From Spizellomyces punctatus DAOM BR117 (lineage: Eukaryota), in NCBI GenBank assembly GCA_000182565.2, contig KQ257450.1: DNA of 64,000 nt, one strand, 5' to 3'. The translations under genes were made by a program, and so were the position numbers. Under the pieces are notes generated by a model that did not search any database, was not told where the DNA came from, and saw only the letters and a program-made list of their open reading frames with translations. Positions 58,399 to 63,156 of this stretch are shown piece by piece. The stretch's first letter is position 1; each line of letters begins with the position of its first letter.

Positions 58399-59597
58399 AT
58401 GAGCAAGATGCCGCCTTCAAGAGGACCAATGGCCATATCATCAGATGTCGATGTGTTGACTAGTGATTCTGAAGTATTGAATATTGTAGAGTCGGACGGC
58501 GATGGGGATTTCGCTCCTAGTCGACCTGGTAAACGTTCACAACGAGTCTCTAAAATCGTGTCCAAAACATCTGTATCCAAATCACGGACAAAATCAAAAT
58601 CTTTAAAGTCCACTTCAAGACTATCTCGTCCAGAAATAGTTCGTGCCTCCTCAGTTGTTTCCACCGGGTCGTCAGCATCTGGTACGGCTAGCGCTGACGG
58701 GAAAGAGGATGCCGCCAAGATTGGGCCGGAATCGTCACTGGAGGAGCTGTTGAAGCGAGAAGAGCATCTTCAGCTCCAGATTGATATACTTATGGAAGAA
58801 ATTAAAGTATTGAGAGGAGGGGAGAAGAGTAACGCGGTCGGTGATCAAGCCGAGGAAGAGGGTGAGTTTCTGATATACATTTTCTAGCGGTCAAGTTGAT
58901 ACAACCCATGATATAACATATTTCTACAGAAATTGATTATTCCAACTTTGACGCTCCTGAATGGTGTGTTCCAATCAAAGCAAATGTCATGACCTTTGAA
59001 TGGGACCGATTAGCAGATGCCTGCCAGTTCGATGTCATTCTCATGGATCCGCCATGGCAGCTGGCTTCTCATGCTCCGACCCGAGGTGTAGCGATTGCAT
59101 ACCAGCAGCTTCCAGATGCCTGCATTGAAGAGCTTCCTATCCAGAAACTGCAGAAGAACGGGTTCATCTTTATCTGGGTGATCAACAACAAATACGTCAA
59201 GGCATTCGAGTTGATGGAACGTTGGGGATACAAATACGTGGATGATATAACTTGGGTGAAGCAGACTGTCAATAGGCGGATGGCAAAAGGTCATGGCTAT
59301 TACTTACAACATGCCAAGGAAACCTGTCTGGTGGGGAGGAAGGGCAATGACCCACCCGGGTGTCGACATGGTATAGCAAGCGATGTGATCTTTTCGGAGA
59401 GACGAGGACAAAGCCAAAAGCCCGAGGAGTTGTATGAGATGATTGAAGAGCTAGTACCAAATGGTAATTCAATCTCGCAACACAACCTTCACATTATCAA
59501 TACTGAGACCAATTGAATTCTAGGAAAGTATCTTGAGATATTTGGACGAAAAAATAACCTAAGGGACTTTTGGGTCACAGTAGGAAATGAATTATAA
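58399..59597 (+). CDS. MTA1: MT-A70 adenine methyltransferase of the AMT1/MTA1 (DNA 6mA) clade
   Basis: FDVILMDPPWQL...RGVAIAY, WVKQTVNRRMAKGHGYYLQHAKETCLVG, RRGQSQKPEELY and YLEIFGRKNNLR...VGNEL match ciliate AMT1/MTA1 rather than METTL3 (GRTGHWLNH). Confidence 0.88.
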
Positions 59598-59669
59598 AGA
59601 ATAGACTGTCTTGTGGCCATCTGATCCCCATAGAACATAGACGCCATAGGCCATTAAGCAATGCAACTT

Positions 59670-60110
59670 GATGGACATGGCTTATGGTCCATTCGCGATA
59701 TAAGCCTTCGGCAGCGGGAGAGATGTCACAGACAAGTCCCTGGAACATTGGTCAAAGATGGCTGCATATCCTTGATACATCACCAATGCATTTGGCGAAT
59801 ACGTCCACTGCCCAAGTATAGCACCTATTTTTTTCTGACTGGACAAACAGCGCACATGCAGAGTATCATGGTGCTGCATTAGCTGCGAAGGAAAATTATT
59901 GCATCATTGAAACAGTTTCCCTTGCTGTAACATGTTCGGGCCAACACCATCGGGATGGACGAACTACCAATATGGGACAGAAAGAGAGAAGCGAATACTA
60001 TCGGACAGGGTTATAAGGGGTAAGCTTCTTGTAAGACTCTTGCGTGGGGCTCTCGTACAGCGTGATAATGGTCCTGCAAAGTTCCGTCCTGCCCCAAATT
60101 CTCGACGGAT
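59670..60110 (-). pseudogene. Decayed inverted copy of THG1
   Basis: Minus-strand translation W*FVHPDG...F...NN...QLM...RCL...I...GQ.DVF and YAAIFD aligns colinearly with THG1 WLVVRVDG...F...ND...QLM...RCM...I...GQSDEF and YPPSFD. Stops and frameshifts are present, and it follows an inverted copy of the THG1 upstream sequence. Confidence 0.6.
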
Positions 60111-60127
60111 GGGGGGGGGGGGGGGGG
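60111..60127 (+). repeat. G17 homopolymer
   Basis: 17 consecutive G; corresponds in inverted orientation to the C6 run at 62185-62190 just before the THG1 ATG. Confidence 0.9.
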
Positions 60128-60176
60128 CGAAATTCGTTAACGATCTCCATTTAGGAGGGTACAGCATGTCGCAGCA

Positions 60177-60214
60177 TGTGCAGATAAACTGGGACCCCAC
60201 ATGACCACACGTGA
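60177..60214 (-). repeat. Left arm of imperfect inverted repeat (partner 62091-62129)
   Basis: Reverse complement TCACGTGTGGTCATGTGGGGTC-CCAGTTTATCTGCACA vs TCACGTGTTATCACGTGGGGTCACCAGTTTATCTGCACA: 35/39 aligned columns identical. Confidence 0.9.
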
Positions 60215-60230
60215 CAGATTCACTCATGCA

Positions 60231-61383
60231 TCATTTCATCGCGGCTAGCAAGTTCACCATGCCAAAGTATTCGGCCTCCTTCTTAAGCATATCCTTTTCT
60301 CCCGCAGATAAACCCTCTGGGACACTCCGTCTTCTTAGCCAGAACAATATCTTGGCAAATATCTGTCCATCGGCGTCAATAAATACCGTTCCATCGGCAT
60401 GCGACTTTGCGGTCCACCGATCGCTAAACATGGATGCCAGCATGGACTCTGGCTCGTGGGATGGTGCTAGAGTAGATCGCGCCACCGTGTAGTGGATACC
60501 ACCAACATTCAAGGATACCGGGTTTTTATTTGCTTCGAGGGTCGTTTCCAACAGCTGAAGATTGCCCATGGCATCCTTGAATGCTTCTTCCTGATCGCGT
60601 TTTGCCATCTTCAGAGCTTCTTCCTTGTCCTCATATTGCTTGCCGAGCGAGTCCAAGTAGTCGTAAAGTTCTCGTTTGATCTTATCTACTTGTGTCGATG
60701 GGAGATCGAGTTGTGTGTTGGAGATGGGAATCTCCCCGTCACTTGTTCTGGCTGGTGCCTAGTGTGAGCATCTCAGCTGTTCAGCAGGGACCATGATTAC
60801 ATCGGGCACTACTACCTGCTGTCTCCTGCTGTAGCCGCCCTACGATTTGTTCCAATTCCTGAACTCTACGTCTCAGCAAGATCCTTTGTGCGTGCATGGT
60901 GCCCATCATTTTCAGATACTTTTCTGCCGTATAATCCTTCTTGAATCCACATTCACCATACCAATTCCGTACCCCCCATAAGATATAGTCGGGAAGCAGG
61001 GACCAATCAGTCAAATTAGTCATGGTAGTTATGTGTTTACTCATCTGCGCATGTTGTTGATCTAACATGCCGCCATAGGAACAGTTCATCGAGAAAGTCA
61101 CGCCGCATCGACAGGTATACATGTTATGAGGATTGATCCATTCACGATGAATGACGTAGTGGTGTGGGTTTCCTGTTGGAAACGTCCAATTGTGCTGTCC
61201 CTGGAGTCGTGCAAGACGGAAGGCAGGATCAAGGTCGGGGTCCGGGGCATTCATGAGTTCCTGATATACCCTTTGTTGTACGTTACTGGCGATCTCTGCA
61301 AGGACTCGCTTGCTGTCACGGTTGAAGCGGTTGGCATATTCGCCTAACTCATCCTCGGATAAGACCAGAGATTGAAAAGACAT
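60231..61383 (-). CDS. Two-exon protein: unrecognised N-terminal domain, coiled coil and C-terminal KCTD/T1-type BTB domain
   Basis: ATG at 61383; a 64-nt GT-AG intron at 60815-60752 joins the two ORFs in frame; BTB motif VSLNVGGIHYTVARSTL...SMLASMFS...VFIDADGQIFAKILFWLR...EAEYFG. Confidence 0.75.
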
Positions 61384-61559
61384 GGCGCTTATAGCAAAAA
61401 AGAAAGCTTTATTGATTGCCAGTCCCATTAGCTGATCCAAGTAGCGGAGGATTACGTCAGAAAGAGCGCGTTTTGCCCTAGTGGGGGGTCGCTCGTTTGC
61501 TTGCCTCCCCCCTCCAGGGCTTCCTGTTGGCTTTCTGACCTACTGAAAGCCGGCTGATA

Positions 61560-62078
61560 ATATGAAATAAGCCGAGGTGAAAGACTGCATAGACAATGCA
61601 TCCGAAGAACGCGCAGAAGTGGACGGCAAAGTGTCATGTTCTGGGGATGCTTTTTCGGTGGAATAAAGGGTGTATTAGCCAATATCGAAAAGATTGATAA
61701 TTCTCAATGTGGAATCGATTCAGAAGCATATATTCAACATTTAAACGGGTATATGTTACCTTTTTACCGCATTCCAGGTGTCTTTTTCTTCCAACAAGAT
61801 AACGCACCCATTCATACATCACATCTTTCACGCCAGTGGTTTCAGCAGAATAACATCCACCTTCTCAAATGGCCAGCAATCTCCTGATCTTGATTCCATC
61901 GAGAATCTATGGTCAATCTTGAAAAGACGGGTATATAGACAGAATCCTCATAATGTAGAACAATTAAAGGCGATGGTGCAAGAAGAATGGGTATATCTCC
62001 AGAATATCTGTTTAAACTAGTTGAATCTATGCCTAGACGCATGCAGGCTGTGGTAGATGCCAATGGAGCTATTGACTA
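61560..62078 (+). mobile_element. Tc1/mariner DD34E transposase remnant (5'-truncated, frameshifted)
   Basis: SVMFWGCF, FQQDNAPIHTS, KWPA / SPDLDSIENLWSILKRR and LVESMPRRMQAVVDANG; frameshifts near 61880 and 62000; D-to-E spacing is 34 after frame repair. Confidence 0.9.
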
Positions 62079-62090
62079 GACTAGATTAGT

Positions 62091-62129
62091 TCACGTGTTA
62101 TCACGTGGGGTCACCAGTTTATCTGCACA
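62091..62129 (+). repeat. Right arm of inverted repeat; tandem E-boxes immediately upstream of THG1
   Basis: TCACGTG at 62091 and 62101, about 70-110 nt before the THG1 ATG. Confidence 0.9.
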
Positions 62130-62197
62130 CTTGCTGTCCCTCATCAGCGAGTCGTTCATGAACTCTACATTATCACCACTGGTTCCCCCCATCAACC

Positions 62198-63156
62198 ATG
62201 GCTTGTAGCAAGTATGAATATGTCAAGGTCGGTGCTCTGCGGTCGTCACATTCATCCCGGTATGCTACACCGCGAGAAGGCGCTATCCAGCAGACGGCAA
62301 ACAGAATCTAATATGGTAGTTATGTAACCTCTAGTTGTTTGAACAAAACATTACCCTCCTCCCAAATACCTGGCTTGTTGTCCGAGTCGACGGTCACAGC
62401 TTTCACCGGTTTACCTCAGAACACGATTTTGCAAAGCCAAACGACATTCGCTCCTTACAACTCATGAACTATGCGGCCCAGCGCTGCATGCAAGAAATGC
62501 AGGACATTGTTCTCGCCTATGGTCAATCAGACGAATTCAGCTTTGTGTTTCGCCGATCCACAAACTTGTATAAGCGTCGAGAGGCAAAGATCACGAGCAC
62601 CTTGTGCAGTTTATTTACTTCCAATTTTATCTTTCATTGGAAACGATTTTTTGCGGATCTGGAGCTCAAGTATCCACCATCCTTTGACGCCCGCGCGGTA
62701 TGTTATCCAACGGATCAGAATTTGAGAGATTATATGAGCTGGAGGCAAGCGGATTGTCATATCAACAACTTGGTGTGTGCACTTAATGTCGCGAATGCTC
62801 GTAAAACGGAAAGTCACTAACGGAAGGTCTTTCCTTAGTACAATACTGCGTTCTGGTCCTTGGTTCAAGATACAAGCAATCCACGAACAGAAAGAGAAGC
62901 TCAAGCCATCCTGAAGGATACGGATTCCGCAGCTAAAAATGAGCTTCTTTTCACTCAGTATGGGATCAACTATAACAAGCTCCCAGAAATTTTTCGCAAG
63001 GGCTCGACTCTTTTCCGCCGACTAAGTGAAGTGGCGGCGTCGACACGAGATGGTACTTCGGAAGTCAAGAGAACCAAGAACCTAGTCGTAGTAGAACATG
63101 GCGATATCATAGGAGACAAGTTTTGGCAGGAGAATCCACAGATTTTATCAATATGA
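62198..63156 (+). CDS. THG1: tRNA(His) guanylyltransferase
   Basis: MACSKYEYVK / LFEQ...VVRVDGHSFHRF, AYGQSDEFSF, PSFDAR, YMSWRQADCHINNLYNT and KNELLF...GINYN. Confidence 0.96.

What the first reader, a model, noticed from the sequence alone, without database searches (positions are those of the whole stretch)
59670..62200. Inverted-repeat-bounded cassette (novel BTB gene plus dead Tc1 transposase) between THG1 and an inverted THG1 pseudogene
Seen: 60177-60214 and 62091-62129 are inverted copies (35/39 nt). Weaker similarity extends outward through the THG1 leader, first exon and intron, and the left arm continues into a decayed THG1 reading frame. Between the arms lie an intact intron-containing BTB gene and a broken DD34E transposase. 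Inference, two models: (a) a transposon-associated inverted duplication of THG1 that trapped an accessory gene; (b) a Pack-like Tc1 element carrying cargo whose terminal repeat was co-opted as the THG1 promoter. The homology extending into THG1 coding sequence favours (a). The E-box core is far better conserved than the coding relic, which suggests that the left promoter copy is still constrained or homogenised.
Basis: partly seen in the sequence, partly recalled or inferred. Interest (0 to 1): 0.8.

Follow-up and report, generated by a model that had tools for sequence, protein, structure and literature searches.

The report
Dead Tc1 transposon carrying orphan gene
In a chytrid fungus, a broken cut-and-paste transposon sits just upstream of a tRNA-processing gene and encloses a whole, transcribed gene with no close relatives found; the neighbouring 'inverted pseudogene' that was proposed is not there.

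Summary
The inverted arms are real (35/39 nt). They are the terminal inverted repeats (TIRs) of a decayed Tc1/DD34E element, 60162-62136. The same TIR, with TA ends and a tandem E-box core, bounds 6 other small derivatives in this genome. One of these carries both ends of the same transposase. The THG1 pseudogene is not there: four tests gave background scores. Similarity beyond the arms runs only about 25 nt and stops short of the THG1 start codon. Model (a) is refuted; the structural part of model (b) is supported. The cargo is an intact, annotated, transcribed 377-aa gene (orphan N-terminal domain, probable coiled coil, C-terminal KCTD-type BTB). It replaces the element's 5' half and ends 16 nt from the left TIR. 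No parent copy or close homologue was found, so it works like a Pack-TIR but fails that class's strict parent criterion. The E-box core is a family feature, not evidence of promoter constraint. The element ends 61 nt from the THG1 ATG, and one ChIP run of unknown antibody peaks beside both TIRs, so promoter co-option is open. Synteny could not be tested. The earlier-findings look-ups showed no note on this element; similar cargo-bearing mariners were noted in giant viruses.

The parts
60160..60161 (.). TA, left target-site dinucleotide
   Evidence: family copies begin TA|CAGC
60162..60214 (+). Left TIR, including a 10-nt tandem duplication of its outer end (60162-60171 / 60172-60181) and the tandem E-box core
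   Evidence: 85% to the right TIR against 61-68% to other family TIRs
60231..61428 (-). Cargo gene (P0001/P0002, 377/378 aa): orphan N-terminal domain, probable coiled coil (inferred from a low-confidence model), C-terminal BTB_2 domain; annotated intron 60815/60812-60752; stop codon 16 nt from the inner end of the left TIR
   Evidence: minus-strand RNA reads at its 3' end, up to 17.6x
61429..61572 (.). Cargo/transposase junction; candidate promoter or 5' UTR of the cargo gene; no detectable transposase N-terminal relic
   Evidence: P0003 aa 1-186 scores 27 against 33.3 +/- 5.6 in shuffles; low RNA depth on both strands at 61332-61679
61573..62067 (+). 3' half of a Tc1 DD34E transposase (equal to P0003 aa 187-355); two frameshifts, decayed C-terminus; first catalytic D and the DNA-binding domain missing
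62091..62136 (-). Right TIR with two perfect CACGTG (62092, 62102); its outer end is 61 nt upstream of the THG1 ATG
62137..62138 (.). TC where the right TA duplication is expected (decayed)
60133..60159 (.). Left outer flank, with a weak inverted match (about 19 of 25 nt) to the right outer flank 62138-62162; unexplained
   Evidence: a shared-motif pattern gave 16 hits against 18 in the control, so it is not a repeat family
59625..60159 (.). Intergenic DNA, not a THG1 pseudogene; low minus-strand transcription (2-3.6x); probably the original MTA1-THG1 spacer (inference)
62198..63156 (+). THG1 (neighbour; exons inferred as 62198-62227, 62335-62772, 62839-63156); transcribed
   Evidence: 3' reads 33-47x
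58399..59624 (+).

Best explanation
60162-62136 is one old, non-autonomous Tc1/DD34E element that inserted at a TA 61 nt upstream of THG1. Its 5' internal part (5' UTR and about 186 transposase codons) was replaced by a whole intron-containing BTB gene in antisense orientation, most likely by gap-filling or template-switch repair at a break inside the element. The capture happened either here or before the element arrived. Shown: TIR identity, family link, transposase remnant, intact cargo, and transcription of the cargo and of THG1. Inferred: that the gene is captured cargo rather than a resident, the repair mechanism, and purifying selection on the cargo. The cargo most likely acts as an oligomeric KCTD-like adaptor (BTB for self-assembly or cullin-3 binding, orphan domain for the target); this is inferred from domain content only.
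For: TIR pattern: 16 matches against 0 in the control. On inspection 10 of the 16 lie in E-box TIR context and 6 do not. A second pattern gave 11 against 0. Together they define 6 other derivatives, on C2, C3 (two), C5, C10 and C22; 4 of the 6 have both ends with TA and 2 have one good end. The 309-bp C2 copy holds the start (MALDSHKRAAIV) and the end (…DANGWWTRY) of the same transposase between these TIRs, and its 3' end aligns continuously with 61990-62138. Transposase 5' fragments on C2 and C5 also have the E-box pair just upstream. The two window arms match each other at 85% against 59-68% to other family TIRs, and their diagnostic core occurs only at these 2 sites, so they behave as one element's pair. 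The cargo stop is 16 nt from the TIR. The transposase took 2 frameshifts in 495 nt while the 1134-nt cargo CDS took none (Poisson p about 0.01 if they are equally old). The left junction is not an assembly artefact: a contig of run X7 spans 60017-60221, and ChIP depth is non-zero in all 30 bins.
Against: The right TA duplication is not intact (TC). No parent copy of the cargo exists at DNA level. The only protein-level paralogue of its N-terminal domain is a 47-aa, 38%-identical relic on C21 that ends at another repeat. The element is single-copy, so no transposition with the cargo is shown. About 25 nt of inverted similarity outside the TIRs is not predicted by a clean TA insertion. The empty site was not seen: 0 of 34 metagenomic MT-A70 loci had THG1, BTB, COX15 or POP1 in their mostly short flanks, and run X8 laid only on the transposase. 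Cargo GC and GC3 are host-like, which fits a resident gene equally well.
Confidence: 0.7

Rival explanations
1. The BTB gene was resident. A Tc1 element inserted between it and THG1, and the left arm arose locally as an inverted copy of the element's end plus about 25 nt of host flank (template switch or alternative transposition), or from a second insertion of the same sub-lineage that lost its inner part.
For: Inverted similarity continues about 25 nt beyond the TIR ends (5 of 1500 random pairs reach the score). The left end has a 10-nt tandem duplication. No parent copy of the gene was found. Composition is host-like.
Against: The gene has no close homologue in the protein collections searched, which is odd for an old resident gene. 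Its stop codon lies 16 nt from the TIR. The left arm starts at a proper TA and the element's 5' interior is wholly missing.
Confidence: 0.22
2. One reading: an inverted duplication of THG1 (promoter to coding sequence) that trapped an accessory gene, leaving a THG1 pseudogene at 59670-60110.
For: Only the roughly 25-nt outer-flank similarity, which ends 35 nt short of the THG1 ATG.
Against: Background scores in tblastn, DNA alignment, frameshift-aware alignment and Pfam Thg1 genome search. The arms are explained as TIRs.
Confidence: 0.03
3. The arms are chance or promoter-motif convergence (two E-box promoters), and the transposase scrap is unrelated to them.
For: CACGTG also lies upstream of COX15 (56242) and MT-A70 (58327).
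Against: The match is 46 nt at 87%, E 2e-7. The same ends bound TA-flanked derivatives with transposase termini.
Confidence: 0.02

Closest known systems
Pack-TIRs of animals (Tan et al. 2021, PMC8277862; abstract and search passages read)
   Same: Single-copy TIR element enclosing non-TE genic DNA; transcribed; the paper attributes most single-copy cases to transposition-independent gap filling and shows a case with a mutated TA duplication.
   Different: Their strict set needs a parent copy at 90% identity or more; none exists here. The paper covers animals ('fungi' occurs 0 times in its main text). The cargo here is a whole orphan gene with an annotated intron.
Pack-TYPE / Pack-Mariner of rice and maize (Gisby and Catoni 2022, PMC8903248; passages read; author names recalled)
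   Same: Mariner-type TIRs with TA duplication around coding DNA, beside MITEs of the same TIR family.
   Different: Those are clustered multi-copy elements without transposase hits and mostly carry gene fragments with high identity to host genes. This one is a singleton with half a transposase and a full-length gene.
Tc1/mariner DD34E transposons and their MITEs in fungi (Muszewska et al. 2017, PMC5751038; passages read)
   Same: TIRs, TA target and DDE_3 transposase with 34-residue spacing; the paper reports few DNA transposons in chytrids, S. punctatus included.
   Different: 'cargo', 'passenger', 'captured' and 'BTB' occur 0 times in that paper's main text.
ToxhAT (PMC12506042; search listing only)
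   Same: A fungal DNA transposon carrying a complete gene.
   Different: hAT-type (recalled), 14 kb, mobile between species, known cargo; here Tc1-type, 2 kb, immobile, function not tested.
KCTD-type BTB/T1 proteins (KCTD16, KCTD9, BACURD)
   Same: BTB_2 domain, E about 3e-9 to KCTD16 over residues 283-373.
   Different: The BTB is C-terminal here (N-terminal in KCTDs, recalled), behind an orphan domain; no close full-length relative.
Promoter-bearing Tc1/mariner ends ('blurry' promoters, PMC6446368, search listing only; Fusarium mimps upstream of SIX genes, recalled)
   Same: Element ends lying in or acting as promoter DNA.
   Different: Here the end holds tandem CACGTG boxes and lies 61 nt from a housekeeping gene; promoter activity is untested.

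Membership tests
Tc1/mariner DD34E element (decayed derivative) | Terminal inverted repeats shared with a family | tested here: met
Tc1/mariner DD34E element (decayed derivative) | TA target-site duplication | tested here: inconclusive
   TA on the left, TC on the right; TA at both ends in 4 of 6 other derivatives
Tc1/mariner DD34E element (decayed derivative) | DD34E spacing in the transposase | tested here: met
   P0003 has D169, D264, E299, spacing 34; the remnant aligns through the second D and the E across one frameshift; the first D is deleted here
Autonomous Tc1 element | Intact transposase with HTH DNA-binding domain | tested here: not met
   aa 1-186 absent, 2 frameshifts; 9 of 9 genome matches to P0003 are partial
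Pack-TIR (Tan et al. 2021) | Both TIRs of one family flank non-TE internal sequence | tested here: met
Pack-TIR (Tan et al. 2021) | Parent copy of the internal sequence in the genome (90% identity or more) | tested here: not met
   DNA search found none; only a 38% relic and two distant BTB domains; it fits only the paper's relaxed criterion without a parent
Pack-TIR (Tan et al. 2021) | Microhomology at capture breakpoints; element without cargo at the orthologous site | not testable with these tools
   needs a parent copy and a related assembly; the genome has no relatives held
Pack-TYPE / Pack-Mariner (packFinder definition) | Hit to coding genes, no hit to transposase, non-singleton cluster | tested here: not met
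   transposase remnant present; cargo-bearing form is single-copy; definition
THG1 pseudogene | Detectable homology to THG1 at 59670-60110 | tested here: not met
KCTD-type BTB domain (Pfam BTB_2) | Score above the curated cut-off | tested here: met
   45.7 bits against 21.4; PDB KCTD hits
KCTD-type BTB domain (Pfam BTB_2) | Oligomerisation or cullin-3 binding | not tested
   no complex prediction or assay run
TE-derived promoter | THG1 transcription start inside or dependent on the TIR | not testable with these tools
   the RNA run is 3'-biased and the ChIP antibody is not given

The most novel reading that the evidence does not exclude
The Tc1 TIR is a portable bidirectional promoter built on tandem CACGTG boxes. 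After the insertion displaced THG1's own upstream DNA, the right TIR came to drive both THG1 (outward) and the orphan BTB cargo (inward, through the dead transposase), while the left TIR fires its own weak outward transcript. The host would then depend on the element's end for a tRNA-maturation gene, which fixes the cargo in the genome.
Probability: 0.25. Interest if true: 0.65.

Novelty: new variant of a known kind. Interest (0 to 1): 0.42.

Why it matters
Gene capture by TIR transposons is documented in plants and animals. My searches showed no Tc1-borne cargo gene in a chytrid, and the locus tag gave 0 papers; subscription papers were not searched. A whole, transcribed orphan gene between Tc1 ends suggests a route to lineage-specific genes in a TE-poor early-diverging fungus. 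Because the species can be transformed (Medina et al. 2020, seen only as a reference title), TIR promoter activity toward THG1 is directly testable. Without the promoter result, it is one fossil element of modest interest.

Tried and rejected
THG1 relic: rejected by four tests. E-box conservation as a sign of promoter constraint: rejected, since it is a TIR family feature. Outer-flank motif as a second repeat family: 16 hits against 18 in the control. A second cargo case: the 400-bp insert in the 555-bp C3 derivative is another dispersed repeat (15 matches), not a captured gene. Intact master element: the 408-aa DDE_3 ORF on C3 (L041) has no family TIR and no tblastn hit to P0003, and the C6 Tc1 has different ends. 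Donor of the cargo: only itself in 3 searches (two searches were length-limited); 0 of 21 viral candidates; Atlas gave no usable hit for the N-terminal part and generic BTB clusters under 0.9 for the whole. The single viral match to the TIR start has no partner repeat or transposase. AlphaFold from a single sequence gave pLDDT 42, so no fold search was run. Rfam: 1 sub-threshold hit, E 0.36. The sigma-70 scan is not relevant to a eukaryote and was at background. Synteny through metagenomes: 0 of 34 loci informative. No RNA holder was listed in the run index; a raw-read run was laid instead. GC bias does not explain the ChIP profile (rho -0.08, 30 bins). Supplements of the papers were not opened; repeat annotations there could already list this element.

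Full report
Setting. The window is G000:C1:1824086-1888085 of a 24.1-Mb, 38-contig assembly. The gene between the arms matches proteins that the sources name as Spizellomyces punctatus SPPG_00726, in two isoforms, so this is a chytrid fungus. The order here is COX15 (named from the sequence, recalled), an MT-A70 gene, the cassette, THG1 and POP1 (Pfam for the last three genes named).

Observation. The BTB gene is intact: BTB_2 scores 45.7 bits against a cut-off of 21.4, and a 61- or 64-nt GT-AG intron reproduces both annotated isoforms exactly. The transposase remnant equals residues 187-355 of an intact 360-aa Tc1 relative, P0003, whose triad has 34-residue spacing. It has two frameshifts and lacks the DNA-binding domain and first D.

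The THG1 pseudogene is not there. tblastn restricted to 59600-60200 gave a best E of 1.0 for exon 2 and 0.19 for a 9-residue plus-strand hit of exon 3. DNA alignment was at background in 4 of 4 scoring schemes. A frameshift-aware alignment scored 26 against 28.8 +/- 3.5. Pfam Thg1 found 2 places genome-wide at E<=10, neither on the left of the cassette. What does exist is about 25 nt of weak inverted similarity just outside the arms, reached by 5 of 1500 random pairs in a post hoc test. It ends before the THG1 ATG; further out the score is background.

What the arms are. A 16-nt pattern from the arm's outer end gave 16 matches against 0 for the control. Ten of the 16 lie in a common context and 6 do not. 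A second pattern built on the E-box pair gave 11 against 0. Together they define 6 other elements: 309 bp (C2), 555 bp (C3), a solo end (C3), at least 112 bp with one end truncated (C5), 131 bp (C10) and 143 bp (C22). Four have TA at both ends. The C2 copy is a plain internal deletion: TIR, 5' UTR, the first transposase codons, the last about 30 codons, TIR. Its 3' end aligns continuously with 61990-62138. Transposase 5' fragments on C2 and C5 carry the E-box pair just upstream. So the arms are TIRs of this DD34E family, and the E-box core is built into the family. The window's arms are closer to each other (85%) than to other copies (59-68%), and their diagnostic core occurs only here. The element therefore runs 60162-62136, after TA on the left and before TC on the right. 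All 9 genome matches to P0003 are partial, so no autonomous partner was found. Related multi-copy transposase pieces occur in run X8 of another organism.

The cargo. It lies antisense to the transposase, replaces the element's whole 5' interior, and stops 16 nt from the left TIR. An earlier scan note (e1-5530134, not checked here) reports the same flush packing for virus-borne mariner cargo. The N-terminal 190 residues hit only the protein itself among 1.84 billion representatives. Both halves hit only the protein itself in the 5.8-billion set within the length limits. In the genome there is a 47-aa, 38% relic on C21 that ends where a dispersed repeat begins, plus two distant BTB domains. The BTB is KCTD-like (E 3e-9). 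The structure model is unusable (pLDDT 42). An adaptor role is inferred from the domain alone. The cargo has no frameshift in 1134 nt where the transposase has 2 in 495 (p about 0.01 if equally old), which suggests constraint.

Reads (4 of 24 listed runs laid). RNA run X19 (about 6% read, 817 reads laid) piles up at gene 3' ends: MT-A70 20x with poly(A) at 59624, THG1 33-47x, cargo up to 17.6x on the minus strand. Minus-strand depth of 2-3.6x continues over 59418-60113. So the cargo and THG1 are both transcribed. No joint over the cargo intron was seen, and starts cannot be read from this library. Three contigs of X7 (kind not recorded) cover only the cargo and the left junction, at 5 substitutions and a shorter G run. 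ChIP run X20 (antibody not given) is high over the 5' halves of MT-A70 and THG1 and low over their 3' ends, independent of GC. It peaks on both sides of each TIR with a dip over it, and is low at the annotated cargo start. If this is a promoter mark, both TIRs look like bidirectional promoters. This is one run without input, and the left dip adjoins a G homopolymer, so it is a lead only. CACGTG also lies 72 nt and 117 nt before the first ATG of the MT-A70 and COX15 frames; 12 sites were found in the window and most were not tied to a gene start.

Mechanism. Most likely (0.7) a Tc1 element gained a whole gene in place of its 5' half by repair at an internal break, and now sits dead 61 nt upstream of THG1. 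Single-copy Pack-TIRs are attributed to such gap filling in PMC8277862 (abstract and passages). Against this stand the decayed right TA, the missing parent, the unexplained 25-nt flank match and the untested empty site (0 of 34 metagenomic loci informative). The main rival (0.22) is a resident gene enclosed by a local inverted copy of an element end.

Comparison. It is a decayed member of the Tc1/DD34E family. It works like a Pack-TIR or Pack-Mariner but fails their strict definitions (parent copy; no transposase; multi-copy), so I file it as a variant. Searches for chytrid Tc1 cargo and for the locus tag found no description.

Verdict. Real structure, wrong preferred model. Interest 0.42; up to 0.65 if the TIR proves to drive THG1.

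Noticed in passing
L007:1810-1817 and L023:2827-2834 (G000 C2 and C3): Two TIR derivatives are both followed by TACTGTAC, which resembles a Tc1-type excision footprint (recalled form TA-CTG-TA) next to the element.
   Followed up: no
L003:516-535 against L020:1470-1675: A repeat copy on C2 matches the flanks of the C22 MITE and has TA-C-TA at the insertion point, like an empty site with a footprint.
   Followed up: partly
L023:2352-2765 (G000:C3:1822351-1822764): The 555-bp derivative holds a 400-bp insert of another dispersed repeat (15 matches, 75-91% for the other copies).
   Followed up: partly
L036:5186-5225 (G000:C21): A 33-40-nt repeat end with 37 other matches in the genome truncates the only paralogue of the cargo's N-terminal domain; tandem 345-nt units with zinc-finger-like frames lie upstream.
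   Followed up: partly
L041 (G000:C3:532018-535443): A 408-aa open frame with an IS630/Tc1-type DDE_3 domain and no family TIR; a different, possibly intact or domesticated transposase.
   Followed up: no
L035 (G000:C5:962030-962551): A second Thg1-family gene (E 1e-25) in a 327-aa open frame, probably a Thg1-like paralogue.
   Followed up: no
window 60093-60109: A 17-nt G run in the left flank, 11 nt shorter in a contig of run X7.
   Followed up: no
window 59418-59765: Minus-strand reads overlap the 3' end of the MT-A70 gene, so cassette-derived transcription may run antisense into it.
   Followed up: no
window 56242 and 58327: TCACGTG lies shortly upstream of COX15 and MT-A70, a possible common promoter motif in this species.
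   Followed up: partly
L062:1039-1972 (G000:C6): A separate decayed Tc1 family with 28-nt inverted ends, next to a tRNA-like sequence.
   Followed up: no
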